Positions 147 through 43,600 of a DNA stretch of 64,000 nt are shown here, one piece after another; within the stretch, counting starts at the first letter, position 1; each line of letters begins with the position of its first letter. The notes beneath the pieces were generated by a model, which ran no database searches, had not been told where the DNA came from, and worked only from the letters and a program-made list of their open reading frames with translations. Source of the stretch: Amoebophrya sp. A120 (Eukaryota; Protista; Dinoflagellata); contig CAJINV010000011.1 of assembly GCA_905178155.1 (NCBI GenBank), forward strand, positions 2,714,485-2,778,484. The letters run 5' to 3'. Made by a program: the position numbers and the translations under genes.

Positions 147-2580
147 CTACGATCGAGCACCAGGCGGGTTTTTTTTCGACTTCGGCTGCATGTAACTTCT
201 CGAGGGTCGCTGCTGAAACAGAACCGCGTCGTCTTGCTCGCTTTCGGGTAGTTGTGCTGGCGCGGCCGCAGTAGACATCAGCAATTCGTCATCATGCTGC
301 ATGAACGAAAGTAACTCCGCCATGTTGGCGTTTTCCCGTTCTTCTTGCGCTCGTGCCTGTTCGAACTGTCTTTCGTTGAAATTCACAAGCACATTGACGT
401 CCGTCGGGATTTCGCCGATGTCGGGCTTTTCTCCCGGAGCACCCGCAGCTGCGGAGGACAAAGAAATGGGGCCGCGTTCCTGGTTGGTTGTGGGTCTAGT
501 TCTTGGCGAAGCTCCTGGTGATGGTGCTGCCCCTGCCCCTCCGGCAACTACAACATTATCGTAGTTGTTGATGGAGTTGAAATCGAAAATCGTGTTTGTC
601 GGGCGTTTTCGTGGCACTTTGGACAACAGCTCGTAAAATTCGTCCAGTTTTTCCGCGCTGGACCATGTGTGGTCAGTTCTCCGGAGAATGCGCACCTTCC
701 CGCTCTTCGGATTCTCTTTCGCCTCGATCAGCATGGCGGTGAAGTCAAAAATCTCCCTCGTCGGTCGCTTTCTAGGGCGAGTAGACATGGTTGCTCCGGC
801 GCCACCTTGTTCGTTGTCATGGTGCGCCGCATATGAACTGCAAAAGTATCGTACTCATATAAATGCATTTCTCAGCATGAGAAATAAAATTTGTAAATGC
901 TGACTTGCCTTTAATGCAAGACCTGCATTTATACGAGTACGATACTTTTGCACAGCATACCACACTAGCGTCGTGTGTCGTCGTCGTCTTCGACCCTGTC
1001 GGCGTCCGCGTAATGTGCAACGTTTCGGAAAAAACACTTCTCGGGCTGCTCTCACCTACACCTGTGCCGAAGGTAGAGGATCCGAAATTTTCACTCATCA
1101 GCTCCCCTTCTGGGGCAACTCCTGGCCGCTTTCGACTTTGCTTGTGCTGTCCCGCGGATGAAGATATAATCGCCAAATTCGGGCCCAGACCCTCCCGCTC
1201 AATCCGCTGTAAGATTGACAGCCTCTCCTGCTCCCGCATTTTGCGGAAATCGAGCAGCTTCGCTTTTCTCGGTTTACTCTGCTGCGCCAGTAACAGCCTG
1301 TGCGTCTCGGCGGCTCTCTTCCGGTTCTCCAAAATCGTCGCATCCGGATCGTCGCGAACGTAATTCGGCCATTCGCTTGCTGTCGGAGGGAACTTCAGCG
1401 GGTATTGGTATTTCGTCCTACTCAAACTCGTGTCCCAGAGACCGGGGACGATGGAAACCACTCCGTCACTGCTGTCGATGTCTTCAACGAGGGAAGAAAA
1501 TGTGTAGAAATCTGGACCTAGAGAAACCGCTTTCTGCAAAACTTTCGAAATCAGAGTTTGCAACTGCTCTTTGACAGTACTGTTCTTGCCAGCAGTTCCT
1601 TTGCTGGTATTTCCCTTCACCACGCCCCTGCTTGAGATGTTCTTAGCGGTGGCGCCGATTTCTAGTTCACTGGGTACGTCGGTGTCTGGGTGTTCCGTAC
1701 GCGGGGTGTTCGTCCGTGGCGTGTTCGTCCGTGGGGTATCCACGTAGGCTCGCGGCGTGTGATGCGGCAGCTCGGTGTTCTCACTGGAGGATGAATCGAG
1801 ATTGGTTGTCACGTCAAGGACACGGTGGTCCTGCTCAAGAATATCTGCGCTGTGCTCGCCCTCTGTTTGCGGTTCTCCACCGCCTCTTGGGGTCCAGTGC
1901 GGCGTGTCGGTTTCGTGGGGCTCCTCCGCATCCGCGCGCGGTGTCCAGTGCGGCGTTCCAGCTTGAGTAATTGTGTCCTCAGCTCCAGTTGCTGATGAAG
2001 GAGAAGCAGCTTGTTGTTCTGCAGCTTGGTCCTGGTGGTCATGCTGTTGGGCTTGATCCAGTCGCGAATTATTATGTGCAGCATTTCTGCTGTGACGTGC
2101 CAATCCGCCACCGACGAGCACACGGGGAGGTGATTCCGGTTTGGCAGCTGGTGGTGCAGGTGAAAAAACAGCACCGCCCTTCCCCTTGTTCTTCTCTTTA
2201 TTCTGCGCTACCGCAGACAAGTTGAGCGAAGTCTTTCCCAGCAGATCATCTTCTAGCGCCGGCAAAGCTTCCGATCCTCGAGGCAAAGCCACAACAGACG
2301 GACGCGAAACCCGAAAAGGCGCTCGAGTTGTATGTGTATCTGGATTAGCAGTGTTCCCCGCTACTTCTGATTCCAAGCCCTTCCACGCTTTGACGCATTG
2401 GATCACGTTATTCGTTTTGGCTTTCGAGGACTTTAGAAGCTCCTGCCGGAAATACAGCTCCTCGTCCCGATAAACCCTTACCCCAGGAGTTCCAATGATC
2501 GGAACCGACGCTGCAATGTGGTCGCGCGGATCGGGCAGGAAACTTTGGTCCTTCAGGACAAGATGCTTAGTGCGGCCCAT
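147..2580 (-). CDS. Hypothetical low-complexity protein (~766 aa), two exons joined across the element at 832-959
   Basis: ORFs 817..2580 and 147..788 join in frame (...THDAS-AAHHDNEQ...) when 133 bp (element + one 5-bp repeat) is removed. Contains many TP[R] motifs and a duplicated RKRPTxxIFDF. Confidence 0.7.
832..959. mobile_element. Introner/MITE-like non-canonical intron, family A
   Basis: TIRs tatgaactgcaaaagtatcgtactcatataaatgca ... tgcatttatacgagtacgatacttttgcacagcata. Flanks ccgca (827-831) / ccaca (960-964). Confidence 0.85.
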
Positions 2581-8400: not shown

Positions 8401-9524
8401 ATATTGCGCAAACAAATGGGATCTAGAGGAAACGCCATCTAACAAACATCTACACGCTAACGCAGGTTCACGACCACATCATCGCCATACAGTATCATCA
8501 CAACCAACTACAGGGTGTACATATGAACTACTCTTGTCCGTTGTGATGGTTTAAGATTTATACGGCAATCTCGTCCTTGTATTCAACTCTAACGAGGAGT
8601 CAGAGTCCCCATTGGTATGCCTCTCTTTCTGGTAAATTTTTTTTTCCTGTATCATCGCTCGTGACTCTAACTCTTTCCACCCTCATAGCTTGCTCATTAT
8701 CTTCTGCGTCAGTGTCATGATGTACGCTTGCAGCACCACTACAAGATGAACCACATCTCGTTTCATCACACAATGAAAGACTAAACCATTTTAGACGCGC
8801 TGGTCCAACGAATCAGACTCGCCGTTGACCGTGATTTTTTTCAATTTTTCACAATAACAACACAATTTTTTTGCAGTACATTTTTCCACGTCACTGAGAA
8901 ACCACAGCAGTTCGAGTCCCTTTCTTCATAATGTACAAGTGAAAAGGAAGAGGCATGACATTTAGGAAAGAGTGACGTGACTATTCTCAACTTTCGTAAC
9001 TGTAACAGGGTTCATTTGCGATATCGATAAAATTCATTTGCATTTAAAGGTTTAATTGAAACGTCGCCTATTTGCTGTAAAATCGTCGATAAAAGTTGTA
9101 AAAGTCAATTTCAGACACAGACGAGAACAAGTAGTGTTCTTCGTCTGCCCACTTAAAAGATGTGATTCACGTGCAAGATCTTCACGCGGCCCACTTCAAG
9201 AGTATCAGTATTTTGCTGTAGTTGTTTCGAAACTATCAGCAGCCCGACTAAGTTCTAGATTCGTTCTATCGGTCTTTTATCTGCCCGTTCTTGTGCACCA
9301 AAATGACACTCGGTGCTGTGCTATTCAATTTTTCTTTCTAGTCCTCCGGTACAACTAGCGCTGTTTCAAGTAAAACCGCAGTGGTCGTCCCACAGTGATA
9401 CCTAATTGATCAGAGTTTGTCGCTCCAGCGCTATCTAAAAAGACTTCTCGTTTTGATTTCTACTTTTTTCAACATTTTCGAAACCAATGTTGTACCCCAC
9501 CCCCTTGTACTGTTTTCTCTCCGC

Positions 9525-11366
9525 TTAATCGTAGTCCTTGGGGCGGCGGATCTTGACCCGGTGCTTGAACAGCTTGTCAAACGCCACGTGCTTGTCCGCG
9601 AACACCCGGGGCGCCATGGAGGGCATGGGGTACAGAAACTGGTGCTCGTACACGTGGGCCTCCTCGCCCGCCTTCAAGTGCGACTTTTCCAGCGAGCTGG
9701 TCGTCGTGATGTCGATCTTCTTGTCGGGTTTGTTGTGCTTCGTGACCGGGTTCGCCAAGTCCACCGAGATCTCGCTGCGCGTGTCGTGCGCGAACCGGAA
9801 GTTGCGCTTGTAGTCGGTTTTCTCCTTGGCCATCTCCGGAATGCCGCCGTTCTTCTCGATGAGCTGGTCCAGGGAGTAGGTCGTGCCCAGGGTGCGCACC
9901 CCGTTCTGCGGGGGGCGGTAGCGCCCGATGTTCTTCATGATCTTGTTCGAGTAGAAGAAGTACTTGTCAAACAGCGGCGGGTTATGGATCTGTCAGGAAC
10001 GAAATCGACAAAGTTGAAATGATTTGTCATGCAAAAAATGGATGCTAGTTGTAACCCAGTCTCCAAGTGGCGCATGACAATTTGGCTAGAACCGAAATCC
10101 AGTTTGTCATGCTGTTTGGGTAAAGATGACGCCTTTTGTCATGCTGACGCCACTTTAGCAGCTCAGTTTCTACCCCTCAACAGGCTTACAATCTGCCTCA
10201 CTTGCCTACTCTGCAAGACAGGGGCTTTCGCTTTGTGGGCTGCATTTTATGCATGACAAATCAATTCAACTTTGCCGATTTCAATCCTGACACTCCCATA
10301 CGGATTCTGTTCCGTGTACACGATCGGGTTGCTCACGTAACTCCCGTCGTCCGAGATGGAGATGGTCGTCTTTACGTCCTCTTTTTTGCTGTTTCCACCT
10401 TCCGCAGCGGATTTGCTGCGCTTTTTCTTCTTTTTAGACGAGGACTTCTTCTTCAGCCCGAGCGTATCCCCGAACAGGGCGGCATTTTGTTCTGCTCCTA
10501 CCTTCCGGTCCGCCTTCGACGCGGAAGACCCGATGCTGGTGCCCGAGACGTAGCTGCTCGCCACCTCGGAGGACAAGTAGGAGCTGGCGGAGCTGATCAC
10601 ACTGCTGACGTCAGACGCGGCGTCATCGACGTCGCGCTTCTTCGACTTGGACTTCTTCTTTTTCGTTGTCACTCCGTCCTTCTCCCAGGGCCCAAAGGGA
10701 CCCTCGTTTTTCGGGTCGAAGGCGTGGTCGCGCTGGATGGAGGTGACCGGCAACTCCGCGTTCGCGCCGCTGCACCCGCCGCCCACCGCGCCGGGCTCGT
10801 CGAGGAAGCGGGACTCCGATCGGGTCAGGTTCGTCACCGCGTTGCCCTCCGCGTGGTCGACGGCCTCCTTCTTCTTGATGTACTTGGCGTGGCTGTCCCG
10901 CGGCAGCCCGCTGTCAGACTGCGTGCCGTCCCGGTCGTCCGCGACCTTGTGGTGCTTCTGGTACAATTCGGGAAGTTTGGTCGCCACAAAGGCGGCCAAG
11001 TCGTCCATCTCGTTGCCCGGTTGCGGTTGCACCTCGCCAGAACGGATCTTCTGCGCGCGCTCCTCCAAATATGACAGTGCGCAACTCCCCCTCCCCTCGT
11101 TTGTAATGCAAAATCCCGAAAAATCTAGTCGCTGCGCTGCCTTGTAGCACACTTTGCATGACAAGTTCGGGAAGCCCAAAGAGTTGTACTACATTCGGCG
11201 CATGAACTTGTCATGCTCAGGCTCCATCAGTGGTCGTATTGCTGTTCATACCAAACAAATGAGGGGGGGGGGGAGTTGTGCACTCTCATACCAAATATGC
11301 CCATTCCTTCCGCTGTCGGGCGCTGAACTTGGCCTCGCCGCCGGCGTCCACGGCGGACGAGGGCAT
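9525..11366 (-). CDS. Hypothetical Lys/Ser-rich protein (~430 aa), three exons split by two introner elements
   Basis: ATG at 11366. Removing 226 bp gives ...KEWAYLEERAQK... and removing 323 bp gives ...YTEQNPPLFDKY..., joining ORFs 11286..11489, 10247..11179 and 9525..9938. Confidence 0.75.
9983..10300. mobile_element. Introner/MITE-like non-canonical intron, family C
   Basis: ~55-bp imperfect TIRs tatggatctgtcaggaacgaaatcgacaaagttgaaatgatttgtcatgc / gcatgacaaatcaattcaactttgccgatttcaatcctgacactcccata. Flanks cgggt / cggat. Confidence 0.85.
11070..11290. mobile_element. Introner/MITE-like non-canonical intron, family D
   Basis: TIRs tatgacagtgcgcaactccccc... / ...gggggagttgtgcactctcata. Perfect 5-bp direct repeat ccaaa (11065-11069, 11291-11295). 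Confidence 0.88.
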
Positions 11367-12169
11367 GGTTGGGGAGTTTTGGAAAGTTGCTCTTCGATCT
11401 TCACGAGGTGAGAGCGAGGAGAGGGGTGAGAAAAGGTCAGGGGGAAAAAAAAATTCGTTGGGACTATAATTCGTTTTCGGATTAGACAATGTGTTTTGCA
11501 GTGCAGAAGAGCTATCTTCTATCCAATCTTAGTCTTTCTCGTTTTCCGAATGATAAAATCTACGTCTAGGCGTAATTTTTCAAGTGGTCCTCTACTGATG
11601 GATGCTATGGCAACAATGTTGATTGTGATTCGTATCCTCTTCGAGCAATCAATTACGAACGTGAACGAACCCTCCCAATTGCTCAGCCCACGAATACTTT
11701 TGGCCTTTTGTTTCATCACTCAAACTCAAGGCTGGTACCAGGTACGATTTTATTTGCGAGGCAGAGTTAGAAACTGTTCCTGCGGTTGGCGATATGTTGA
11801 TTGCAATGTCGTTCTTCAGGTTCACTAATATATTTCCGAGCAAGTAGCGACCACTCTCTAGCAGTCACGTCGCGAACTCGTCTTGTTCATGGCGTGGGTT
11901 TAAATGACGTGAATGTTGTCTGTGAACCAAGAACAGTATTGGACTTTTTCGAGCCTTGTAGGCGAATTGAAAATACATGCTACATTCATACCACTCATCA
12001 ACATGACTGGATACCTTGCGCAGAGCGCTCCCCTCCAACTTAAATAAGAACGACGACGATGATGGGCCCACACGGATAGAACGATAGTGATAGAACAGAA
12101 ACTACGGCACCACAGACACTCAACAGGACTGAGGGAGGACAACTCGCACCCTGTAGCTGCGAAAACTTT

Positions 12170-17940: not shown

Positions 17941-17947
17941 TGGCTCT

Positions 17948-19053: not shown

Positions 19054-19803
19054 AATGTATGTAAACGCAACTCTTTCTCTTCCTATTTGATTTATTGCGC
19101 CCGTCCGAAAACACAGTTCCTCCCGGCTTCGTTCGTGACACACCAAACACAGACACACACGACGAGGCGGAGCCACGACAGAGGGCGTCCATCATTGTGG
19201 AACGGCCATGCTGGGGCGCAATGCTCTCATTTTTGTATCTCATGCGAAGAAGCCCATGCGCTTGCATCCACCCAGCTACTTCCACAAAAGCTACTAATGT
19301 TGTTGTAGTCGTACTCGTTGTACTGGCAGCAAAAAAAGTTCACACATTGACTCGGGTTCTTGCAAGCTCCCTAAGCGTGCTATCACAGCTCATCAAATCA
19401 ATCGGAGAAACCAAATTCACATTTAAATAGCGTGTTATAGATACACACATTTCGCATCTTTTAACGTTGAACTGGTTGGTCTTTCTCTGAAAGCGGGACC
19501 CTAAGCTGGACTGGCCCTGGGGCGAATAAAAGCTCAACAGAATGATCAGCGCTATCAATCTAAAGTTCTAGGAATAAGCATAAGCGAAGATGGAGACGGA
19601 CTCTTGTTTAGAATAGTTTCAAATACATCTGACTTGATGTTCTAATACTCGGATGAGGACTTGTTGTGCTGTCTGTCAGAAATTCAAATTCTGCAAAACA
19701 AAATGTAAAAAAAAGAAAAGTCGCGATGATGCACCTATCCTGATGTTTTGCGTGTGGAATTCGAAGTATTACATGCTATCGCAAAAACCACAGTTTATTG
19801 TTA

Positions 19804-22800: not shown

Positions 22801-25800
22801 TTTCAGTTTGGAAAAGCAGCCGAAGCCAAAACCTGCACAGATCACACATTCAAACAATAGTCCACTTGCAATTGATTCATCCTCACACCAGTTCCAAGTA
22901 AATTGTAATTATACCGTGTCCGCCGCCTGTAAATTGACTCCCACCCCCGCCGCCCGGGTCGTGCACAGCATCACCTGGGGACTCCTCCCTTCGTTCAGTT
23001 TCCGCATCTTTATGTACTCCTCCACGACGGCTTTGCTTTTCGGATTCGCAAACCCGGCCGCCAACACGTTCCCCAGATCGCCGACGGGAATCGTGTCAAG
23101 CTTTTCCATCGTCGGTATCCGGGTTTTTTGCAAGAGCTGGTGCTGTTTGTGCTTCGGAAAGACCGCCTGCGGCTTGTAGAAATCGTAGTTCTCGAATACA
23201 TTTGCCGTTTTTCTCAACGGCACGGCGGGCCAGTTGGCTAAAGCGTGTTTGACATTGTCTTCATCCGGGAACGAGCTGACGTCGATGTGGTTCACATCTT
23301 CCGGCATGTTTCGCATCAGGAGCGCAAGCTGCGGATCTTTGAGCAAAACCTTCTCCAGTGCCTCCCGGTTTTGCTTCTTCTGCTGTTTCTGGATGGTTTT
23401 CAGTGCGGTTTGGTGTGGGTGATCCGGATTATACACCATGCTGTCATCAAGGTCCACTCGGGATTGGTCGAGGAAAGAGGAAGCGTCAAGCAAAACGGAG
23501 TCGTCGTGTTGTTGCTCCATGGCTTTTTCAACCAGTAATTCCCGTTGCTCCGAAGCAGCTTGTGTTGCGGAAGGTTGCAATATAAGTTGGTGACCCGCCG
23601 CAGTCCCGTCTTGCTTGTTGTGCCGTTTCTCAGCCTTCCGGTATGTCTTCGCGAACTTTGCGAGTTTTTGTCGGATTCTCCGTTCCCGCTCGAACACGCA
23701 GCAGTTTTGCGAGTTGCCGGGGGCGCCTGCCTGGTCATTTAGAAGGTCAAGATCGTCGTCATCAATGGTTTTGCCCGCCGCCGATGTGGTTGCGCGCTTC
23801 ATCTTCGCATTTCTTCCTCTCGCTGCAACAGAAACTGCACGAGCCGCACTCCTGCCACCGACTCCGCTGAACCGGTCGATTTCCTTCTGGTACTCTTTTC
23901 GTGCGCTCATGGCGTCGATGCTGCAGAAATCGACTTCTTTCGCGGTCAGATACCGGGCGATCAGGTCCAGCATCTGTTTCAGTTGCGTGAAAATCACGAT
24001 CTTTTTCCTCGCCAGTAGCAGTTTCGGCAAGACCCGGTCGAGCAGCTCCAATTTGGGGCTGGTGCGGATTAAGTCGTCGATGGTCATGCTGTATCGGACA
24101 AATTCCTTGCTCCAATTGAGCGCCGGGTGCTGCGCAGACCTCCGCATCATCGCGATAGTGGTTTGCACCGCCGTTTCCTGCTTGTTTTCCAGGTCATTTT
24201 TATCGCCGTTCTTGTCATCCATCCTCGCTTGCATCTCTCTTCGCATCTTGTCGTCGATCTGCTTCTGCAGTGCGTTCCTCGGGACTTCTAGACACACCTC
24301 CCGTTTCGCGGGGAGATTGTGGAGGATATTTTGCTTTTCCCGGCGGAGCATGACGGGTTTTAGAAGCATCTTCACGAGATTCATCTGCAGCTTCGCATCT
24401 TCCTGCTGCTTGCTGCCGCTGTTCGGGGGCTCCATATTATCAAGAGCCAGGTCGAGATCGTCGCCGTTATCAGCATTTTTTCTCTTATTTCTCTTGTTCA
24501 TTCCCTTGTTAATTCTCTTCGACAATTTTTCGATTTGCTTCAAAACCGGATCTAAACAAGCCTGCTTCTTTTTCTTCTTCTTGTTCGTCGCTTCCACCAG
24601 CGTTGCGGTCGCGCCATCGCCGTACAGAATCGCGTTCTGATCTTCCTCAAAATCGTCTTCCTCTTCCTGCCTCGAAAAAACCCGCTTTCCGAAGAGAAGG
24701 GACACCAAGCCCCGCCAGAATTTCTTCAAGTCGTCCTGCACTGGCGTCCCGGTTACCAGAACACTCATGTTGCACCGGAGGTTCATCAAATGTTGAAAAT
24801 TTGCCGCTTTCGGATTTCGGAACCGGTGCGCCTCGTCGATAATGCAGACGTTGAATTTATCCTGTGTAAAAACGTACCCACCCCAGAGTTGTAATGCAAA
24901 TCTGCATGCTGAAAATGTTTCTCATGCGGAGCCCCATGAGAAGCATTTTCTAGTCGTGTTTTGCAATTTGTCATGCTCCAATCAGCATGATATGCTAGAT
25001 CTGTGATGCTGCTGAGCTAGCTCAAACAGCACTACACTACGAATCCAAATTTGTCATGCAAAACAGCCAAAGCTTGTGGATTTGTCTAGCCGATTCCCCA
25101 TCTTGACTATGGTGTGGGTACGTTTTTACTCAGGGTAAAATTTCTGTTTGCTGAAAAACTGCTCCTCCTTCGCGAGAATCTCCACCGTGGTGAGCCACAC
25201 CCGGTAGTGCCGCATCTGCAGCAGCCCTTTCAACGTCGCGCGCTGGTCGTAGTCGCCGACGAAGGGGAAAAAAAGACCGGATTCCATCTCCGGCTTCAAA
25301 TCGTCATTATCGAAAAAAGCGTAGTCGTCGTGGTTGTATCGTGTTTTCCTCTTGTTTTTCATGTCGTCGTCTCTGTCAACGTCCTTGGTTGATGTTGTTC
25401 CACCGTTATAATTGTTCTCGTCGAAATCATGGTCAAACAGCCTGCGCATCTCCCGGATCCAGAGCGGGAGAACTGGGGCCGGACAGATAACCAAGTGTGA
25501 CATGCAGCTGCTTGCACAACCTCCATAGCCGTCGCCTGCACCAGAGTAGGAAATGTCACTCGACAGTTGTGCATGCCTGGCGTTCATGTTCCTGCCAAAC
25601 ACATCCGTGTCTAAATGTTGCAGGTGATTTACTTCTTCATCCTCCACCTCGTCGAAGATACGTCTTCCCCGTCTTTGGAGCAGCAGATTTTCATTGTCGT
25701 GGTTATCACCCCCGCTCCCGTTGAGGGAGTTCATCAAACCATTATCCACCCAGTCCAAAAACGCGAGGCAACTGATCGTTTTCCCGAGGCCCATCTCGTC

Positions 25801-28800
25801 GCAGAGCAAGGCGGACTGCTCCTGCACGTAGCAGTTCGCCAGCCACTGCAGCGCATCCACCTGGTGCGGCATCAGCTTGACGCGTTGGTGCACTTTCGGT
25901 GTCCAATTTTTGATGCGGGATTCCGGAGAAATGCTGGTGAATTCCTGATGGTTCTCGAAAAGTTCGAGTTCCTGATCCCCAAGAGATGCTTGTAGCGGCA
26001 AGCCCATCTGCAAACCGAGTGCGTTGAAATGGCTGCGGAGCTCGTTTGCGTCCGAGTTTTTCTGCTGGTGTTGTCGGATAGAACGCGCAGCGACATTTTC
26101 TTCTTTCAGGAGCATTTCACGATTGTCATCTTCGCCGAGAAATCCTTGCAATAAATCGGGAGTGTCATCTTCATCTGGCGGAAAAATGCGGCCAAGCGCT
26201 CTCGTAGTTGCGTCGCCAGCTGCAGTTGAGCAACTGTTTCCGAACTGCATCATGGTATCGGCGGTCAGAACGACGCGGCCAGCTCGAAGCCCACTGTTGT
26301 ATTTCTCTAACATTGTGATTTTTCTCAGCCGCGCCTCATCCACATCCATTTCGTCCTCTCCGAGCACAGACCCATCCAGATTCATCTCGCTTCCCAGCAC
26401 ACTGCAGACACTGCTCGTTGAAGCTGCCGCTCCGGACGTAGACCACAAAGCGGCGTTTTTGGCGCTCCTTTGCACGGCATCCTGGTTCGAAGATTTCTCG
26501 TCGAGAACCTTCACCCTGTAGAGAATCCGCTTGTTGTCCCACACGCACTTGCAGTCCACGGGAACCTTGCCGCGCTTGTTTGAGTGATTTTCATTTTCAT
26601 CATTTTCAACCTGATCTTCCGTGGCCCCCACCTCGTCGGTAGAAGAAGTACCTGCATTTTTACTTCCATTTGATGCATTCTCATCCTTCCTTTCAATTCC
26701 AAACCACCGCTGGGGGGTTTCATCCTGAGCACGCCCAAGGTCTGGCGGTCCCTGAAAGTGTTCTTCATCGTCGTCGTCGCGGATTTCTTGATCGGTGTGT
26801 TGAACTGTCATGACTGCTGCGTTCCCCTTCTCGCTTGAAAAATTATTGCTCGTCCCTTCCTCGAATTCTCGATTCAGTTTTTCCATCTGCATCACATGGT
26901 ACACCGCCTGTTGGTAGAGCTGCAGGTACCGCGCACACCCCAACGCCAGTTTGTGCAGAGTGTGTCTTCTGTAGGTTTTTCTCTGCTGAAGTTCGAAGTA
27001 TCTTCTCGGGATTGTCGGGACAACATCGTTGGAGTAGATGCTGCTCCAGATGTTCCATTTTTGTCCGTGGATTTTCTCTTTTTTGTGCCATTCGAACAGC
27101 TCACCACCGGCAGCGCGGAGCTGGAATTCTCGACCGGAAACATCATTGCTGCAGCCATTGTCGTATACAACCGGAGGTTCATTTTCTCGCGCTACTTCGT
27201 TTTGCTGGAACAACGCGGAGGCAGTGACACCGGCCGCGCCTTGCAGCAGTCCGACCTGCACAATATCGCCGAAACCAGAACCATCGATAACCACCGAAGC
27301 GTCAGCTGCATTCCTATCCTCAGCATCTCCTTGGTTGTCGTCGGCAATAAGAAGGGGCCGGTTGTCGTCTTCTGTTTTTGGTTTATTTGCCGCAAATAAA
27401 TCGTCGCCAGAAGCGGCTAGTACGAGCGGCAGGTCCAGGTCGACGACGTCTTCAGAAGCGGCATTTTTAGATCCTCCAGCAATACTAGGAGCTCCTGCAG
27501 CGGAAAAGCTGCTAGAAGCCACCCCTCCACTCGCGTTCTCCACCGGCGCTGCATCACCGGTGTTTGTTTGCCGTTTCCTCGCAGCTGCTGCGTCCTCGTC
27601 GGCTTTCCTTTTGAAAGCCTCCAATCTTTTCGTCGTTTCTTTTGCCGGCTCCAACACGGACAATCCCTTCTTTGCGTCAAAACTACCGTTGAAGTTGTAG
27701 CCCGAATAACGCGCGGCCCGGTCACGGATGTGCGCAGGAAGGCTGTGCGTCGGTTTCCTTGCGTGTTGCTTGCGCAGGTCTTCCACGGAAACGAGGAGGA
27801 CACCGCTTTCGTCGAAAGTTTCTTCTTTTGCGACCACCTGCTCGTTGGCGCTTTGGTGAAGTCGTCGTTGTGGTCCAATGGTGGGTTTAATATCCTCACC
27901 TTCGTTCGAGTTCGCTCGCTGTTCGTCTTCGTACTTGAAATGTGCGCGGTCCAGCATGGCCTGAATCTGGTTCTGTCTTCTTTTCGCCGCCTTCTTGCCT
28001 TCGTCACTTGGCGAGTCGCTATCGGAGAGAAGGACGATGGGTGGCTTTGTTTGTTCTGTTGCCTTTTTATCCTGCTCAGCTTTCTTCTTCTCCGGCTGAC
28101 TTGTTCCTGTGTTCGTACCTCCTCCTGGGTTGTTTCTAGACAGCAAGAGCCGCCTGCTTTTCGGTGCAGGAGCGGCGCCAGTTTTCTTCCCTGCTGGAAG
28201 AGGAAGAGCTGCAGTGCCTACTTCCTTCGCTGAAGACGACGACGACAGGTCGATGACTTCATTCTTGTTTTCGACACCTCCTACAGGAGCTCCACCTTCT
28301 ACTACCGCCGGCGTTGTACCAGGAGCGGCAACCGCAACTCCGGAAGATACAGTTGCTTCTTCAACACCAACGCCAGGCCTCCCAGCTGCTTTATTGATGT
28401 CCTCCGCAAACACCCGGCCGTGTCCGGCCTGAAACTTCATCATCTTACTGGCATCCTCGTAAACGCCTAGCCTCTTTTGGTTCGCGTTTTTGATCTTGCT
28501 GTCCTCATCATCAGAAACCACTCTGATCATCTGAAATTTTTCCAGTGGGTACTTCCCCCAAACCTGCTCAATGTGGTTCATCCGGACGCGCCAACCCTGC
28601 TTTTCCTCTACCAGGTTCTGCTCGTACCTCCCCGCGCCGATCAATTCCGGGTCGAAATCCACGTGGATTTTCTTCGTCGGATCCGTGTAGCGGTCTTCGT
28701 GGTTCTTGTTCAAATGGAGCAGTCGCTTCTCCAACTTTTGCATCTTTTTGTACTGCTTGGAAAACGTTTTGTCTTTGTACTGCTGCACGTCCTCGGCTGT

Positions 28801-31800
28801 TGGCGGTTTTTGACGGTCTTCCAGATCGTCGATCAGTTCGCGGTCCTCGTCGTTCAGCTTCCGCTTCCACTCCTCATCACTATCGTAGTAGGATTGGTGA
28901 TATGCATTGCAAAAGGATCGCACTGGCATGATGAATAGCATGACAAATTTCTTCAAGAACACAACTGGTGCAATTTGTCATGCTAGATCACCTAGAAGGT
29001 TAGATTTGTCACGGGCGAGGACTGCAATTACTATGAGTACGATAGTTTTGCAGAGCATAGGTAATCGTCAAAAACCGCATCGGGGTCATCGGAGTCGTAC
29101 AGGACAAGCTCGTTTTTAGCCTCGTCGTCTTGCATCAGAAACGAATCCTCCGGGCCATCCAGCAGCACCCCCATTTCTGCGCGTTTCTCGTCGCGCTCCT
29201 GACACTTTGCGTCAAACGCCCTGTCTAAAGCGTCAAGAGAGCTGTACTTTTCGACTTTTGTGGTGGTCTGTTGAAGATCTTCCGCGGCGGTACTGCCGAT
29301 TTGACCGTCACTAATACGAGCAGCCTGTAGTTGTTTTTCATCGAAGCCATCATCTTCAAACAAGTTCCTCGCTCCGCGGTGGGTGTTATTGACCACACTT
29401 GCCATGCTGACGTTCAGATCGAAATCTCCGTACGGGCTGGGCAAAATGCTGTCGTGTCGGTCTTCTTCGCCTCCCAAAGCGGATTTGTTGTTTCGCTCGG
29501 GGGTTTTTAGCACGATGGCGGTCTCCTTTTGATCTTGCTCCTCCTCGTATGGGACGAGCATGTCGACATTGCTCATGTCGTGGCTCGAAGGTTCTGGCTG
29601 TGCGCCATGGTCTCCTCGAATGCTGACGTCAAGAACATTATTCTTGTCGCCGTTCTTATCGGCATTCTCAAACAGCACCAGATCCTGACGCGCCGAGTCG
29701 TTCAAGTTGGACTCAAAATCGAACAAGCTTCGATTGAGGTTCTGGTTACTATTTCCGCCACCACTACCAGAGCTCCCCCCGTCTTGCTCGAACAAAACGA
29801 GATCCCCCGCGTTCTGGGGTTCTTGCGCAAGAAAACTCTCCATCGGGTCGTCTCCCACGGCGAAGCTTTGGTCTAGAAGGTTCAGCTGCTCGTTTGGAGA
29901 CAAATCCTCAGGGTCTGCGTCTGACATCTTCATGCTGCCTTCGTCATTGTAATAGTCCCGACTAAAGTCTGAGTCTTCCGAGGATTCTGCATCAACGCTG
30001 GTGTTGTCGTCGTCGTCTTCGGAAGATAGGAACTGTTGACCGCTGCGTTCGTCTTTCCCAGATGAATGGTCGTCATCAGCGACGAGAAGCCCTTGTTCGT
30101 CAACATTGTTCCGCTGCTGGTTATTTTCCCGCATGATCCGCCTACTGGCGAAGCGCAATGCACCACCTGGAACGCGGAGCAGCTCAGATTCGCTGTTCGC
30201 ATCTAGAAGACCCTGCTTCATGTTGTCCATCTGCCCAGTCGGATCTTTATTCTTGCGAGAGAGGAGCCTGTTCCTGCTTGGGGCCGGGTTTTTTCGGTGC
30301 CGCGGAGAGTTGTTTTGCTGATTTTTGTCCCTGCTCCTCGCAAGAGTTTTTGATTTCTGTTCCTTTGGTTTCCTCTCCCGATGTAGTTGATGTTCCTTCC
30401 CCGGCCGTTCCCTTTTTTCCTTCACTTCTTTCACCTTTTTTTCCTTCACTTCCTTCGGGGGGGGCTTCGGCGCGATCCGCACTAAGTGTTTCTCGAACTT
30501 CTCTCTGTCCACCCACTGCAGCGGCTTCTGCAACAGCCTCGCCGGGATTCCCAGGGTTAACAGAATGTCGTCTGCGTCGACACTGAGATCGAGCAATGCG
30601 CCGCGGAGAAACCGGCCCTCCTTGAAGTCGAATTTGTCATCGTCGTTGAACGGCACGAGAATAGCATTTTTGAAAAGTTTCATTTTCAGATACGGGTAAA
30701 GCTCGCGCCAGTATTCGAAAGCCGAGGGTGCCACAAGAACAGCCGGATGCTCGTCCTCCTCAGCTTCCTTTTCCTCTTCGGTGAGAAGGCGCTGGAATGT
30801 GATTTTCGGGGGGGCTGGCTTCGCTTTTTGATTTTGTTCATCTGGCGGAACTGCGTGCGGCGGTGGTTGCTGCTCGCCGCCTTGCGTCGTGCCGGCTTCT
30901 AGCATCATTGGGTCTTTCTTCTTCGCCGCATCTGTTGTAACGGTAGCGTCTTTACTGGCAGCGGCGGCACCTCCCTCGCTACTCTGTTTATTTTCTGGAG
31001 GAACTTCTGCCGGCGGTGGAGTTTCTATCCTGTGCAAAAGTATCGCACTCGTATAAATGCATTACAAATTTCCTCAGCATGAGAAGTGAAATTTGTAATG
31101 CGGATTTGCCTTAAGAACAAGATTAAGATTTGTAATGCACGACTGCAATACGAGTACGATACTTTTGCACAGGATAGTTTCAACCTTCACCCGAATCCCC
31201 AACACGTCCTTATGCGTCAACTTTACCCTGGCTGCTTGCGCAAATTTCGCTCGGGAAACCGAGGAGATCAGCGGTTTGCGGCGGCCCCCACCGGCGGTAA
31301 ATCTCGACACCGTGGATCCAGCGTCCGATAACTCCGATGCAGAGCCGGCGTTAGACGTCAGCACCGTCGGCTTGCTCCGCTGCAAGAAGTTGTTGCGCGG
31401 TGGTCCTACCGCCGTTGTTCCGGGTGTGGGTCCTCGGGGAAACCCGAGCGGGCCGGTTTTGATGTTTTGCTGCGCTGGTCGTGCGGCCCCCGTTGCGGAT
31501 GAAGGCGTCGCTGCCACAGCGGGTGTGGGAGTAGAAGCTGCTGTGCCTGGCTTCTTGAAACCTGGCCTTGCTCCAATAATACCGCTACGCGCAGCTGGAG
31601 TCGTGAGACCTTTATTACTTCCAGCAGGGGCCGCTGTTCCTCCCGGTGTTGCTGGTCTGCTTGGGAAAGAACCAGGCTTCGTCTTGCTTGTTTCCGCAAT
31701 CGCTCGCGTTAAGGGACCGCTCTTGTTGACGAGGTTGTTGTTTGAAGGCGTCGACGTAACTTTCTTCGCCCCGCCCCCGACTAAAACTCTTCTACCCGGC

Positions 31801-33875
31801 AACAGCCGTCGGCTACTCGCCACAGAGCCAACATCGCTTTTGCTGCAGTCGCTTCCCAACTCTACCTCCTGTTGCGCGGCGGCCTTGCCGGTATTTGTTC
31901 CTGCACCAGCGATAGGAGAAGATGAAGAGGCCATTAGACCCGTAGCAGTTTCATGATCGTGTTGACCTGCGGCAGTAGCAACTACAGCAGCTTGCTCCGG
32001 CATGCTCCTGCCTTGCTTTGACGAAGAAGTGCCTCCAACTTTCTTCGCCGTCTCTACTTCCACAGGGGAAGCCGCACCAGATTTGTGTACTGCGTCGGGA
32101 ATAAGTAGCGACGGAATTATCTGTTTGGGAGCCACCGGCAAAGCGTTCAATGCATCCGAGGTTAAACCGCTTTTGGGCTTTTTACTCAGCAGCCGTCGCC
32201 GCGGTCCACCACCGAACATCGAGGATATCACGCTCTTCGCCGGGGACGAGTCGTTCGCCTCTTTCTGTCTTTCCGACGGCTGCAGAACCATCTTTGGAGG
32301 TGCGGCTGAAGCAGGCTGGGGCTGCGTGGTACCTGGGAGCGTGGTGGTGGTTGTTGTAGTCTTCGAGACCGGAGGTGCGGATTTATGTTCTTCTCTTCTT
32401 GGTAGAACTTCTGCGACGCTGGTCTCATCCCTGTTGTTCGCTTTCGATATTTCGGCAGCAATGCCAGCGTCCTCTGGTTCCGCCCTACCAACTTCCGCCA
32501 ACTCCGACTTCTGTTGTTGTTCCTGCGCTACCGGTGCGGCCGTTGGTAACAACGTCGCGGGCTCCTGCGGCTTAGCAGCCACGACGGGTAATGCATTTAA
32601 CGCGTCGAGCGTCAAGTTGCTCTTTGGTTTTTTGCTTAGCAACCTCCGTCTCGGTGGTCCACCACCAGCACTGAACATGGAGGAAGCCACGCTACGTGCT
32701 GGGGAAGCATCGTTCGCTTGCTTTTGTTCTCGCTCCGACGGCTGAAGCATCTTCTTATTTGCCTCGTTGGCCGGGGCTGGTTGGAGTGCCGGCTGCGTTC
32801 TTGGCGGAACAGATACTGGAGCAATATTTGCCTTGAGAAGCACATCAGGCAACTGCGCTTGTTCCGGATCCGTTTCTGGCTGCAACATTGGCGCCAGAGG
32901 TTTCTGTTCCATCACCGGCAGAGAGTTCAAGGCATCTACCGTCAAGTTGCTCTTGGCTTTCTTGGGCAGCAGCCGACGTCGCGGTCCGTTGAACATGGAG
33001 GAAACGTGAGAAGACGCACCACCTACGCTCTTTGCCGGAGAGGAGTGGTTGCAGCCGGGAGGAGGTGCTTCAACTGGAACTCGAACTGCGGTGGAAGGCT
33101 GATTTGAGACCACAACAACTGGTGCAGCAACAGGAGCGGACTCGAGTAGTGCCGGGGGAGCGGTTGCTGGAGCTGTCTCTGCCTTTCGATCCTCCAGTAG
33201 ACCACCTGGCTTTATTTCGTCTTGCGCATCCTGCACTGTACCGCCGGACACTGCCCCGGGGTTTCCGACTTCCTGCCCATCAAACGGAAACGGCTTCGCG
33301 ACAACTGGAAGGGCGCTTAGCGCGTCCAAGGTCAAGTTGCTTTTCGGTTTTTTTGAAAGAAGCCGCCTTCTCGCTCCAGCGGCAGGTCCGCCCATCATGG
33401 ACGAAACATGGGAGGACGAAGCCCCGCCGATGCTCTTCGCAGGGGAAACCTCCCGTTTGGCTGCGGCAGGAGCAGTTCCACTAGTTGGCGCATCTTGCTG
33501 GAGGACGGTGGTCCTGTTCACATCGACAGCGGTAGTAGATGGGGGGACACGACCTTCTACAGTATTGCCGACGGGGAGTTCCACCTGCCGCTCCTTCGGT
33601 GCGAGAACTTTCGATGCTTCTCCCGCGGTTGTCTTTCCTGTAACCGGATTTTGATGTGCAGAAACAGCTGGAACCTTCGATGCTCCGACCGGTCGCGGGA
33701 GAAGGCGGCCATTGCCAGCGGGTCTCGGAGCGAGGCTGCTGATACGGCTTTGAACAGAAACTTCGCTTTCGGAACGCGCTCCATCACTGGTCGTGGTTCC
33801 GCGCTTGGGTGGTAGGGTGCGCTTCAGGAGTGTGCGCTTCGGCGCGGGTTGAGGTTGTTGGCTGGATTGGGACAT
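19804..33875 (-). CDS. Giant SNF2/SWI2-family chromatin-remodelling ATPase (~4,381 aa, 6 exons)
   Basis: Motifs [56 protein letters not shown] and [11 protein letters not shown]. Six ORFs join in frame after removing 156, 164, 285, 155 (GT-AG, 22760-22914) and 166 bp, leaving 13146 nt. The link of the far N-terminal exons rests on frame restoration only. Confidence 0.85.
20589..20749. mobile_element. Introner/MITE-like non-canonical intron, family A
   Basis: TIRs tatgcagtgcaaaagtatcgtactcgta / tacgaatacgatacttttgcacaggata. Perfect direct repeat atctc. Removal gives ...NNGD-GRSIL... Confidence 0.88.
24858..25137. mobile_element. Introner/MITE-like non-canonical intron, family B
   Basis: TIRs tatcctgtgtaaaaacgtacccac / gtgggtacgtttttactcagggta. 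Flanks gaatt / aaatt. Removal restores [12 protein letters not shown]. Confidence 0.9.
28901..29059. mobile_element. Introner/MITE-like non-canonical intron, family A (diverged)
   Basis: TIRs tatgcattgcaaaaggatcgcact / agtacgatagttttgcagagcata. Flanks ggtga / ggtaa. Removing 164 bp joins ORFs 29031..31037 and 25126..28962. Confidence 0.82.
31026..31176. mobile_element. Introner/MITE-like non-canonical intron, family A (best-preserved copy)
   Basis: 29-bp TIR with one mismatch, tatcctgtgcaaaagtatcg(c/t)actcgtat. Perfect direct repeat gtttc. Confidence 0.9.
32130..33450 (-). repeat. Four dispersed copies of a coding repeat SPA[K/R]S...RRRLLxKKxKS[N/G]LTxDALxxLPV
   Basis: Copies near 33300-33450, 32910-33040, 32580-32710 and 32130-32250 in ORF 31074..33875. 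Confidence 0.85.
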
Positions 33876-34633
33876 CTTGAAAGTGAAACGCTAGTGTTGT
33901 TGATTGTTCGACGAGTTGAGGTATATGTATCACAACTTGAACTTCTTGCAGGGGAAGTCTTTCATCGTCGTCCTGCAAAATAAATCACTTTATTTTTCCA
34001 AACGAAAGTCGCGACTTCATGGTGGGTCGAAATCGGTTGAAAATGATTATGATCACGACATCAAACGCATCAACGACGTGCGCGCAATCCTGTGCTGTTT
34101 TTTGGATTTGAAACAAGGGATGAATCACCTTGTCGTGTCTCGCTCGTTCTCTCATCGGGCATTTTGCGCTTCTCACGAAGACGATTTGAAATATGAAATG
34201 AGCTACCATGTGGTGGCAAGCTTAAGTACTCTCTATCTCTCGGAAAAACAAACACAAAGCGACATGAAGCGATCAAGACGAAAAAGCGACATTCAAAAAC
34301 ACCGAGTTGGTCTTGGTACCAACTGAGAGAGACAAATGGGAGCCAGAATTAGGTTCAAGGTCGATGTATTTGGAGGGATTCATCTTGGAACTTGAAAAAA
34401 AAATTCTGTACAACCACTTTGATGGTCCGCGTTTTCTGCTAATAATTGCTCAGATGATTCTGATTCTTCATGCACGCAGAACTCACGACATGCTTTTTGT
34501 TTTTAGTTTTCATCATTCGAGCATAGTGATAGTTCTCAATTCAGGTTGGAAATGGAATTTGAATTTCGTCGGTGAAGAATGAGAACAGAGTGCTGGATGT
34601 GGAATGTTGTGACGAAGCCAATTTTTCAATATG

Positions 34634-39791: not shown

Positions 39792-40686
39792 TCCTTCTTG
39801 CAATCAGATTTAGATGATCGAACAATCAAACGTAAGCGAACGAAACAGTAGAAAGTAAGGAAATTCTGGCACAGTTTAACTTGTTGCGTTAAAAAGCATA
39901 GTGAGTCCGGAAGCCGAATCGGGAATCGTACATCGAAAAAAAAAAACTTGGTGTTAGCCTGATGGCGGGGAGGTCCTGGTGCGAAAGTTTGAGTTTCATT
40001 AATTCGTGGCTAGATCAACCTTGACACGGACTGGGTAGCCTTGTCTCGGAAGAAAAAAACGCTTCGACCTGGTAGACTTGAGCAGGGGGAGGAGGAGGTT
40101 TATTCAAAATACGATTTTGCTGACGACTTTTATTTTCTCTGCTGGTGATTCACTCTTAGTCTTATTTTTTGCACTTGCCGTTTATTAATTTACCACGATT
40201 TGCTGAGTAGAGACGAAATTCAACCCTCGTCGGCAAGAAAATTTTAGTTGCGATTCCTTTTTGCACCACCCTCACTTGGAAAAACTCGCGCGCCTGAGGA
40301 ACCCGAAGCCGAACATGAGAAGAGTATGTAAATCAGTTTCGCGGTGCGAAAAATTTCTAAAATAGCACAGATACAACTATGAACAGGAGAACGAGGAGAT
40401 CCGGCTCCGGTTCGTGCGTGTCCCAAACACGAAAAACCAAAAATAACAAATGTTGACCACCGACAAAAATCCCTGCTCAGAGAAACGCGTCCACAAAAGC
40501 GGATTGAGGATACGAAACAGGAACACCATGAAACTTCAAAGAAAATGGAATAGAAATAGCACCACTGATGGACGAGGATGCTTGTAGGTCCCACAGATAA
40601 AAGTTGACATGTCGACAGGTGGGGAAAAAATCATCTCCAGGGGTTAAATTGTATACGAGTGTAAGAGAAACGGCAACTAAGTAAGT

Positions 40687-43600
40687 TTAGGGTTCCGCCT
40701 CTCTCTGTTTCGCTTTCTCAATCATGTCAGCTGCCAACCGGAGCTCAGCAGCGTCCTGCTCGCCCTCCTGAAGGGCGCGCGTGAATTTGCGGGTTTGCAG
40801 CTTAGGTTGAGCAGGTGTAGTTTTTGCTGCAGCTGCTACCTTGGCTATTACAGAAGCACTAGGCCCACCAACGCGAAGAAGTGGCTCGCCGTGAGGTGAA
40901 AGTTGTTGCACTTCTTCTGATCTCGCAGCTCCATGTTGCCCACTACTCGTCTCAACAGATGATTGGTTTTTGTTCTTTGAAAGAACAGGAGCTCCTGCCG
41001 CATTGGCAACATGATCCTGCTTTGTTCTATGAGCTAGCGCATTCACTGTGGTAACGGCTCCGGTTGCTCGGGCGAGGGCAGGAGAGATTTTTCTCCGACT
41101 AGCATTTTCCTTCGGTGCATCACCGAAGGTCTCTTGGCCTGGATCGCGGCTCTGGGTGCTGTGCTCATGCGAGACAATGGCCGTGTTCGCTTTCTTGTTC
41201 GCACCACGTCCTTTCCGCGGAGTCAAGCCTGGCGCGAGCGGGGTCGCTTCGGCGGGGTCTCGTTCGACAGGAACGTGAAGCGCGGGCGGTGTCTTACTAG
41301 AAGACGGGCTACTACTTCTCTGTCCGCGGCCAGTTGTTGTACTACTACTTGTCAACATCACGTTTTGAAACATACGTGGCTTTGGTCCGGACCCTGTTGA
41401 CGCGGCAGTCAGTCGCGACCCGGTGGATATGTCCGACGGCAAACGTCTCTGGTCGAATGTCGTCGCGGTCACTGTACCTCTTGATCCAGTCGTAGCAGCC
41501 GTCGCACGAGGGTCTTCATAACCGAGGTTCGCGGTAGTTGCAGTGGAAACGTTGGTCGGCCCCCTGGCCATGACAGCAGCTCTACTAATAGCGGTAGGAC
41601 CAGCGCTTCGTGTAGTCGCTGCAGCTGCAGCTGGAGCTGTTTCTGTTCCAGTTGTATAGCTAGCTATTACACCACTGTAGTTTATCATTTCCGATGGATT
41701 TCCAGACCGGTTAACACGGTTAATCGCGTTTATTTCGCGATACCGGCTACCCCCAGCTGCCTTGGCACTGCTTGGTTGTCGTCCCGTCTGTTGCCCGACC
41801 TGCAGCTGGTACGACGTGTCGGCTGCAGTAGAAGTTGGTGAAATTATAGCACCAGCAACTTGCTCCTCCCCGGGCAACATACCGGAAGGAGCGCGCTGAA
41901 CAACAACGTTTACAGGCTGCTGCGCGATTCTCCAGCCTTTAGCAAGAGCAACTTTCTCTACTTGCTGCGAGCGTTGTTGATCATCTACCTGCTGGTCAAT
42001 ATTTCGTGGAGAAGTAGCTGTTCCTGTGGTACGTCGCTCCTGTGCCACTCCGCCGCCGGGGACGAGTTGATTTATTTCACCCGGCAGAAATCCCGTGGGC
42101 GCCCGCTGTACGTGCATCTCCTCCTGCTGCTCATCCGTTGTAATCTGGACCTCCATGTTCTTGCCCTCTACCATTTCGTGGCCGGGGCCTGCCGGCTTGC
42201 TGGTGTTATTCGGAGACTCGGTCCTCCTTTTGTTTCGATAGTCCAACAGTGCCGTTGCTGCTAAACTACCGCCTCCGTTGCTAGGTGTGCTAGCTGTGAT
42301 TGACGTAGTACTTCCTGCTCCGGCGGTACTCCTACTAGGTGCTACAGAAACAACTGGGATTTTTATCGGAGCCGAAGTTGCAGGCCCCCCATGTTGCAGC
42401 TCGTTGGAGCTCCTATTGTAGGACTCTTGAAGATTGTTCGTCGGCCGCGGAACGAAAAGGTGTTCCCCTGAGCGCAAGGACGACTCTAAGTCGGTTTCTT
42501 CCCATTTTTCCTCTCCATCTCCCCCGCGGCCCTCTTTTGTGTCCATCATAGCTGCATGATCCACGTAGTTCTCCAACTTGCGCTGCTTCCTCTCGTCGTT
42601 CCGCCGCCGCTTCGCGTCCAAGCGCTGACTCCTCTGTGCCTGGAGCGCGCTCAAGTCGCTCGGACGATCGAGATCGTTGCCGTGCTGCTTGCTCTGCGAA
42701 TTTACTTGAACTTCTTGGCCGTTCAGGAAGCCCTGTATGTGCTGCACATTTTTAGCAGGCAAGCGGCCACTCGAAGCAACCCCACCACTTCGAACGTCCC
42801 CACCAGTGTACGCGAAGCTGAGAACACCAGGAGAGTGCTGCCCCTGTTCCCCCGACGTCGCGTGGAGGCCGCTGTCGTTGTGCTCATGTAATATCAAAGG
42901 GAAAAACCCCCCCTGCCCATATCGAAAACGAAATTTGTGATGCTGTATTTGAGTACACAAGTCGACTTGTAATGCTAGAAGGCCAAGAGACGCAGCTGTG
43001 GCCTCGCTTGCAGGCAATTTGTCATGCTGTTTCCCACTTCCAGCTGCCCCCTGTCATGCTGAAGATGCAAGGCTTTCCCACGCCAACCAGCACTACAGTC
43101 CGCATCTTTTCCCTTCTAGCATGACAAAGCTGATTTCTTTGTGACCACAAATCTGCATCACAAATTTCTAGTTTGAGTATGGGGAGGGGGGATTTTTCCT
43201 TACGATATCATGATCGTGATCAACAAGCGTCGAGCTGTCGTTACTTTTTTTGAACGACGTTTCTTCTTGATCGCTGTGTCGGTTATTTCTATCCTCTTCG
43301 TCCATTTCGCTTTCGTAAAACATGTCATCGTCGCCTATTCCGTCCTCGTCCCCAATCGCCACAGCACTCACCTTCATCACACCGGACTGCTCTTCGCTTA
43401 AGTGCTGCGACAAGATCGCGCCGACCGCCACGAGAACGACAACCGCTAACACGACGAGGCCGATTGCCCATTTGACCGCGGCGCTGTCCTCGATTTTTGA
43501 TTTTGTCGTTGTTCCGGCGGTAGTGGTAGACGCGTCCGAAGATGATGATTCCTGATGTTCATCTTGACGAGTCGTTGTCTTGACACGACCTAGCGCAAGT

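What the first reader, a model, noticed from the sequence alone, without database searches (positions are those of the whole stretch)
827..43212. Eight transposon-like non-canonical introns that each restore the reading frame exactly
Seen: elements at 832, 9983, 11070, 20589, 24858, 28901, 31026 and 42889 have TIRs ending TA(T) and 5-bp flanking direct repeats. Removing element + one repeat (133, 323, 226, 166, 285, 164, 156, 324 bp) fuses the neighbouring ORFs in every case, and five of those lengths are not multiples of 3. No slide within the direct repeat gives GT/GC...AG ends. Known (from memory): inverted/direct-repeat introners were reported in Amoebophrya, with the excision mechanism unresolved. 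Inference: a structure- or motif-guided excision system removes MITE-like insertions without a scar, at RNA level or possibly at DNA level like ciliate IESs.
Basis: partly seen in the sequence, partly recalled or inferred. Interest (0 to 1): 0.88.

Follow-up and report, generated by a model that had tools for sequence, protein, structure and literature searches.

The report
Hairpin jumping introns with fixed cuts
Eight small transposon-like hairpin inserts in genes of the marine parasite Amoebophrya are missing from its spliced transcripts without using the normal GT-AG intron ends; this intron type is already described in this organism, but the junctions suggest it is likely cut at a fixed distance from the hairpin ends, by a machinery that remains untested.

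Summary
The eight elements are real. They are introner elements of Amoebophrya sp. A120, a type already described in this strain (Farhat 2021, PMC7789003). Contigs from runs that also skip GT-AG introns lack seven of them exactly, and an annotated A120 protein confirms the eighth. One correction: the last element starts at 42892, has no adjacent direct repeat, and 321 bases are removed, not 324. In all eight, the element plus 5 flanking bases is removed. Only one placement fits every junction: 1 base before the TAT end and 4 after the ATA end (chance fit 0.15). That puts TAY at intron positions +2 to +4, matching the window's canonical donors (GTA in 11 of 11) without the G. In a related genome the +5 frame rule held for 123 of 127 frame-called elements. 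They occur in both orientations and show no G or AG preference. A DNA-like run shows no excised form at 7 of 7 junctions. The scan earlier noted a similar element in another dinoflagellate (e1-7630315). The elements are known; the fixed-offset rule is a new, testable lead.

The parts
832..959 (-). Introner 1 (128 bp, short family). Removed stretch 133 nt; 828-960 under the -1/+4 rule.
   Evidence: P0097 matches the joined frame exactly only for offsets -2..0. An X3 piece begins at 960 with no other letters.
9983..10300 (-). Introner 2 (318 bp). Removed 323 nt; 9979-10301 under the rule.
   Evidence: Joint 9977>10301 in X3 and X6, depth 0 in X1
11070..11290 (-). Introner 3 (221 bp). Removed 226 nt.
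   Evidence: Joint 11064>11291 in X3 and X6, depth 0 in X1
20589..20749 (-). Introner 4 (161 bp, short family). Removed 166 nt.
   Evidence: Joint 20583>20750 in X3 and X6, depth 0 in X1
24858..25137 (-). Introner 5 (280 bp). Splits the SNF2 domain. Removed 285 nt. Its mismatch at repeat position 5 excludes a cut exactly at the element edge. A relative has an empty site here.
   Evidence: Joint 24853>25139 in X3, X4, X6; Pfam profile positions 1-123 and 129-289 on either side; P0001
28901..29059 (-). Introner 6 (159 bp, short family). Removed 164 nt.
   Evidence: Joint 28895>29060 in X3 and X4
31026..31176 (-). Introner 7 (151 bp, short family). Removed 156 nt.
   Evidence: Joint 31019>31176 in X3 and X4
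42892..43207 (-). Introner 8 (316 bp, not 319). No adjacent direct repeat.
   Evidence: Joint 42885>43207 in X3 and X4; repeat register; end-profile score
150..2646 (-). Host gene of introner 1: 766-aa unnamed A120 protein, no Pfam match
8858..11420 (-). Host transcript region of introners 2 and 3. Open frame of about 450 codons after removal; no Pfam match in the two segments scanned.
19230..33967 (-). SNF2-family helicase gene holding four introners and one GT-AG intron (22760-22914). Predicted spliced length 13,812 nt; open frame 4386 codons.
   Evidence: The X3 contig is 13,812 nt long
40592..44430 (-). Host gene of introner 8. Open frame 1140 codons after removal; no Pfam match.

Best explanation
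These are miniature DNA-transposon insertions of Amoebophrya A120 that are absent from spliced transcripts together with 5 flanking bases, likely cut from the pre-mRNA at a fixed distance from their ends (1 base before the UAU, 4 bases after the AUA), most likely by a remodelled spliceosome that would no longer check the first G or the final AG. Step 1, insertion: a transposase with a 5-base stagger puts the element at almost any exonic site in either orientation. The 5-bp duplication, an empty site in a relative and both orientations are shown; the enzyme is inferred. Step 2, folding: the two arms pair into a long stem that brings the ends together (predicted fold). The outer 7 pairs are loose: three A-U pairs, then four positions that often mismatch. 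Step 3, cutting: the exposed N-UAU would serve as a donor lacking only its G, and the acceptor would be set by distance from the AUA rather than by sequence (inferred). Because 1 + 4 equals the 5 duplicated bases, the original exon is restored whatever the target sequence, and still in frame after the repeat has decayed.
For: Removal: 7 of 7 junctions listed in the two lays are skipped in X3/X4/X6, which also skip 7 GT-AG introns. X1 has depth 0 for each joined form, and its contigs run from unique flank into the elements. Length rule: element + 5 in 8 of 8. Placement: offset -1/+4 is the only one fitting all 7 direct joints, and 832 agrees. Donor match: canonical donors are GTA in 11 of 11 and GTAT in 7 of 11; the elements read N-TAT in 7 of 8 and N-TAC in 1 at this offset. 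Relative's DNA (81 loci): exact 5-bp duplication in 179 of 293 elements, against 2 for 4 bp and 0 for 6 bp. Frame restored by +5 (mod 3) in 123 of 127 frame-called elements, including 11 of 11 whose repeat has 2 or more mismatches. Main family in both orientations, 18:29 (3 window copies included); second family 5:5. G at +1 in 39 of 123 (control 46); AG at the end in 10 of 123 (control 12). Two stop-codon cases exclude offset 0 and offsets -3 or lower. Arms match only 38-59% at positions 4-7, against 79-97% at 8-20 (320 elements). Hairpin z-scores -7.3 and -8.0. Farhat reports nearly all spliceosomal proteins but no U1 in A120; a canonical-intron strain has U1 (PMC7789003; PMC12005148).
Against: Only 5 window junctions are informative, and the offset is pinned by one element on each side (24858, 42892). 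Five freely sliding cuts would fit a single offset 15% of the time. Editing of one base at 24858 would allow offset 0. The runs with joined forms come from one study and are only guessed to be RNA. No branch-point consensus was found. No lariat, circle or enzyme was observed. The TAT match to the donor could be coincidence, because IS3EU/GingerRoot transposons end in TA anyway. Frames in the relative come from a codon model trained on 19 window ORFs, not from RNA. Only 127 of 348 scored elements (of 368 found) passed, 4 of them broke the rule, and one mismatch case had stops at every offset. Two smaller families were one-sided (6:1 and 4:0), and the four short-family window copies had their best BLAST hits in the same orientation.
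Confidence: 0.5

Rival explanations
1. Same RNA-level, end-measured removal, but by a spliceosome-independent nuclease and ligase that recognise the hairpin base, as suspected for euglenid nonconventional introns.
For: No G or AG preference and both orientations work. U1 was not found in A120. Euglenid introns also have a stem at a fixed offset from the cuts (+4..+6 with -8..-6; PMC4770533) and leave as circles without lariats, according to the review PMC11282704.
Against: The -1 offset puts TAY exactly on the strain's own donor positions +2..+4. The outermost pairs are weak, which suits sequence reading more than a stem-cutting nuclease (inference). Fritillaria shows that a spliceosome can adapt to non-canonical transposon introns (review).
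Confidence: 0.28
2. RNA-level removal guided by the direct repeat or with variable cut sites inside it; the single offset is a small-sample coincidence.
For: Chance compatibility is 0.15. Farhat calls the splice sites variable relative to the hairpin (Fig. 3 legend). Gozashti's table lists mixed gt/at/other ends for A120 families (20 of 58 rows plus 2 seen), though these come from annotation that cannot place cuts inside a repeat.
Against: At 42892 the joint ignores the displaced repeat and has only 2 ambiguous bases. 11 of 11 decayed-repeat elements keep the +5 frame.
Confidence: 0.13
3. Programmed DNA elimination, as for ciliate IESs, in the expressing life stage.
For: TA ends, transposon origin and independence from orientation. 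The life stages of the DNA and RNA runs could not be compared.
Against: No joined form in X1 at 7 of 7 junctions, and its contigs are unbranched at the flanks (possibly the window's own source, and contigs drop rare variants). Both TA ends are removed. Re-annealing of staggered DNA ends cannot work at 42892, where flank positions 1-4 all differ (inference).
Confidence: 0.05
4. Reverse-transcriptase template switching across a strong hairpin between short repeats: a cDNA artefact ('falsitron', PMC8240250, abstract read).
For: Strong hairpins and short repeats are present, and no direct RNA data were available.
Against: Retaining any one element breaks the 4386-codon frame, and one splits a SNF2 domain. 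One unbranched 13.8-kb contig lacks four elements. A polymerase stalling at the hairpin would be expected to carry the downstream repeat letters (inference), but 4 of 5 informative joints carry upstream letters. 42892 has no usable repeat. The frame rule in a second genome indicates selection.
Confidence: 0.04

Closest known systems
Amoebophrya A120 introner elements (Farhat et al. 2021, PMC7789003; read: abstract, passages, sections 12, 16, 20, supplement legends by search)
   Same: Same organism, TAT-starting inverted repeats, short direct repeats, non-canonical ends, removal in transcripts, many families.
   Different: The passages read leave the border unknown or variable. Here one offset (-1/+4) fits all junctions, the repeat is dispensable, and orientation is free.
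Euglenid nonconventional introns (PMC4770533 passages; review PMC11282704 section 6)
   Same: MITE-like origin, a stem joining the ends, cuts at a fixed asymmetric offset from the stem, unknown machinery.
   Different: Euglenids pair CAG/CTG at +4..+6/-8..-6 and prefer a purine at the 5' end. Here UAU/AUA pair at +2..+4/-7..-5 with no base preference.
Fritillaria non-canonical introns (review PMC11282704, section 6)
   Same: Transposon-derived, with inverted repeats and target duplications, and not GT-AG.
   Different: Fritillaria has preferred ends (AG-AC, AG-AT) and spliceosomal removal is reported. Here the terminal bases are unconstrained.
IS3EU/GingerRoot DNA transposons (PMC10045372, passages)
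   Same: TA..TA termini; integrase-like transposase, which echoes the integrase-like TIR introner family 38 of A120 (PMC12130899, passages).
   Different: Their duplications are usually 6 bp; here 5 bp. No transposase was found or tested.
Canonical introners of Micromonas and Aureococcus (as summarised in PMC7789003 section 16)
   Same: Non-autonomous elements that become introns on insertion.
   Different: The Aureococcus elements use canonical splice motifs; these do not.

Membership tests
Amoebophrya A120 introner element | Terminal inverted repeat of 8-20 nt or more | tested here: met
   8 of 8
Amoebophrya A120 introner element | Starts with TAT, 7 variable bases, then AAA | tested here: met
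   TAT on at least one arm in 8 of 8; the full motif in 6 of 8, not in 9983 and 11070 (sequences)
Amoebophrya A120 introner element | 3-5 nt direct repeat at the borders | tested here: met
   7 of 8 adjacent with at most 1 mismatch; displaced by 3 nt at 42892
Amoebophrya A120 introner element | Removed from transcripts at non-GT-AG sites | tested here: met
Amoebophrya A120 introner element | Repeated, in families | tested here: met
   Four related copies in the window. All eight have relatives at 74-92% identity in the 81 loci.
Euglenid nonconventional intron | CAG/CTG pairing at +4..+6/-8..-6 and a purine at the intron start | tested here: not met
   Pairing is UAU/AUA; the first base is a purine in 4 of 8
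Euglenid nonconventional intron | Excised as a full-length circle without a lariat | not testable with these tools
   No raw reads of this strain could be laid
IS3EU/GingerRoot transposon | TA..TA termini | tested here: met
   (TA was also a detection requirement in the loci)
IS3EU/GingerRoot transposon | 6-bp target duplication | tested here: not met
   5 bp exact in 179 of 293, 6 bp in 0 of 293
IS3EU/GingerRoot transposon | Autonomous partner with a DDE transposase | not tested
Ciliate IES | Removed from somatic DNA | tested here: inconclusive
   No joined form in X1 at 7 of 7 junctions, but one DNA-like run only and no stage comparison
Ciliate IES | One TA left at the junction (recalled for Paramecium) | tested here: not met
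   Both TA ends and 5 flanking bases are removed
Canonical (GT-AG) introner | GT/GC..AG ends carried or co-opted from the target | tested here: not met
   0 of 8 in the window; possible in only 7 of 85 perfect-repeat elements of the relative

The most novel reading that the evidence does not exclude
Amoebophrya has a splicing system that measures rather than reads. It cuts 1 base before and 4 bases after a UAU/AUA-ended hairpin, exactly cancelling the 5-base stagger of the resident transposase. Any insertion, in either orientation, at any exonic position, is then born as a perfect intron. The transposon end doubles as a G-less donor, which would explain the loss of U1 and the explosion of introners.
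Probability: 0.4. Interest if true: 0.85.

Novelty: already known. Interest (0 to 1): 0.5.

Why it matters
The elements themselves are published for this strain, and at least one junction is already in the public annotation. How they are removed is an open question. A fixed -1/+4 offset, independence from orientation and repeat, and a donor-like N-UAU start would fix the true borders of tens of thousands of A120 introns. They would also tell experimenters where to look for lariats or circles, and would show a splicing machine tuned to one transposase's stagger. I did not find this rule in the passages read or in the listings of five searches aimed at it. Roy et al. 2023 (Curr Biol), Henriet et al. 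2019 and all figures were not seen and may bear on this.

Tried and rejected
No whole genome was held. No RNA holder was listed on record in the run search; X3, X4 and X6 are guesses. Bins without cover in the RNA-like runs were not used as evidence. The end motif had 0 matches in viral contigs. Rfam gave 0 matches in the window. The protein-representative search was busy twice and never ran. The internal motif TGTVATG/CATBACA was considered as a branch point and rejected: it occurs equally in both orientations (143 vs 143) and at no fixed distance from the end. Displaced repeats in the relative: 2 of 28 elements, both displaced by 3 nt; about 0.8 are expected by chance by my arithmetic, so I do not count this. 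The codon-likelihood ranking of offsets peaked at -1, but by only about 1-2 log units over its neighbours: weak. An apparent minimum spacing of 40 nt between elements was an artefact of my own flank filter. An early frame test gave 5 of 10 for decayed repeats, in a set that included mis-called elements; the improved end calling gave 11 of 11. PMC6221363 held no passage on circles; PMC13326754 does not mention Amoebophrya. Place look-up of earlier findings was empty.
Full report
Observation. All eight elements are in the window. A scan for TA..TA ends with a flanking 5-mer repeat gave 11 hits, of which 7 had at most 5 mismatches in 20 terminal bases. These were seven of the eight, against 0 to 1 such hits in five shuffles. 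The repeats are perfect in three cases and carry one mismatch in four. The last element is in register from 42892, not 42889 (20 of 25 vs 12 of 25 matches), and then has no adjacent repeat. All host frames are on the minus strand. No slide yields GT/GC..AG on that strand.

Organism. A protein named Amoebophrya sp. A120 maps to four window exons without a difference, and another is 100% identical to the host gene of the first element. Farhat et al. 2021 (PMC7789003; abstract, passages, sections 12, 16 and 20, supplement legends; no figures) describe introner elements in this strain. They have inverted repeats starting with TAT, 3-5 nt direct repeats and non-canonical ends, U1 was not detected, the borders are given as variable or unknown, and the mechanism is open. 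The elements are therefore a known kind in the organism where they were described.

Removal from transcripts. Runs X3, X4 and X6 are only guessed to be RNA and come from one study, but their contigs skip seven GT-AG introns, so they behave as spliced RNA. They also skip 323, 226 and 166 nt and 285, 164, 156 and 321 nt at seven elements. Fifty further joint rows were not shown. For the first element, the annotated 766-aa protein matches the joined frame exactly. One X3 contig of 13,812 nt equals the predicted length of 19230-33967 minus four elements and one 155-nt GT-AG intron. That gives a 4386-codon SNF2-family frame, which breaks if any one element is kept. DNA-like run X1 has depth 0 for the joined form at 7 of 7 junctions, and its contigs run from unique flank into the elements. 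X1 may be the window's source, and contigs drop rare variants.

Where the cuts fall. In all eight cases the element plus 5 bases is removed. Mismatched repeats narrow the placement. The 24858 element excludes a cut at the element edge, 42892 excludes offsets below -1, and 832, 9983 and 28901 agree. The only common solution is 1 base before the TAT and 4 after the ATA. This is suggestive, not proven: five freely sliding cuts would be compatible with one offset 15% of the time. At this offset the introns begin N-TAY (first base G, G, G, T, T, C, C, A) and end in eight different dinucleotides. The window's canonical donors are GTA in 11 of 11 and GTAT in 7 of 11 (7 from joints, 1 from contig length, 3 from an annotated protein).

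A second genome. The end motif matched 81 metagenome loci (370 kb; the 80 listed share one assembly prefix), with no similarity to the window outside the elements. Of 293 elements, 179 have an exact 5-bp duplication and 237 have at most one mismatch; exact 4-bp duplications number 2 and 6-bp ones 0. A codon model trained on 19 window ORFs called frames on both flanks. It gave the +5 (mod 3) rule in 46 of 48 under strict settings and in 123 of 127 confident cases out of 348 scored, including 11 of 11 with decayed repeats. The main family lies in both orientations (18:29, no inconsistent edges) and a second family 5:5; two small ones are 6:1 and 4:0. There is no excess of G at +1 (39 of 123, control 46) or of AG at the end (10 of 123, control 12). 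Among 38 mismatch cases, one would have a stop at offset 0, one at offsets -3 or lower, and one at every offset. The arms match at positions 1-3 and 8-20 but only 38-59% at 4-7. Separately, P0001, an unspliced reading frame of a relative at 89% identity, runs straight through the 24858 site and starts inside a 28901-like element: one empty site and one shared insertion.

Mechanism. Shown: the 5-bp duplication, an empty site, removal of element + 5, both orientations, and no terminal base preference. Predicted: a strong hairpin (z -7.3 and -8.0) with a loose outer end. Inferred: a fixed -1/+4 cut, and a U1-less spliceosome that reads UAU as donor positions +2..+4 and sets the acceptor by distance. 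The symmetry of the ends supplies UAU and AUA in either orientation. A euglenid-like separate machine is the main rival; euglenid introns also have a fixed stem offset but different letters (PMC4770533 passages; PMC11282704 section 6). Variable or repeat-guided cutting, DNA elimination and a reverse-transcription artefact (PMC8240250, abstract) fit worse, for the reasons listed under rivals. The TA..TA ends recall IS3EU/GingerRoot transposons, but those usually make 6-bp duplications (PMC10045372 passages), so this is a lead for the mobiliser and not a membership. Gozashti et al. (PMC12130899; passages and 22 of 58 A120 table rows; 2 of 14 supplementary files not searched) class most of the families seen as TIR DNA elements of unknown superfamily with mixed annotated ends.

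Verdict. The elements are real and already known as a kind. The added value is a concrete and cheap-to-test cut rule. I did not find it in the texts read or in the listings; Roy 2023, Henriet 2019 and all figures were not seen.

Noticed in passing
window 62713-63138: A ninth inverted-repeat stretch (41-nt arms, 71% complementary) with TAA/TAT ends, no flanking repeat and no frame above about 100 codons around it; possibly a decayed or non-coding copy. It lies outside both lays.
   Followed up: partly
inside the elements, e.g. window 10025, 24890, 42936: A motif TGTVATG/CATBACA is shared by families with different ends: 26 of 46 window hits lie in the elements (2.7% of the window), in both orientations. 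It is more likely a transposase-binding site than a branch point.
   Followed up: partly
window 28897-29060 and 42888-43208: At the -1/+4 offset one intron reads CT..AC (GT..AG on the wrong strand) and another AT..AC. Aligners could misfile such elements as canonical or minor-class introns.
   Followed up: partly
window 832-43207: All 8 elements lie in coding frames, while long frames cover about 55% of the window by a rough count; a possible preference for exons.
   Followed up: no
run X1, table 5c: Contigs show element ends only 17-39 bases apart elsewhere in the genome, implying very short exons between neighbouring introners.
   Followed up: no
L049:3577-3840 and L053:3596-3745: The direct repeat is displaced by 3 bases from the element end, as at window 42892; near the chance level.
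   Followed up: partly
window, canonical introns: GT-AG introns here are 133-175 nt, all begin GTA and mostly have A-rich rather than pyrimidine-rich 3' ends.
   Followed up: no
window 38802-39803, 51037-53187, 54155-57174: Neighbouring genes encode a RING-finger protein, an ankyrin-repeat protein and a TauE/SafE transporter. The long frames in the window are mostly on the minus strand.
   Followed up: no
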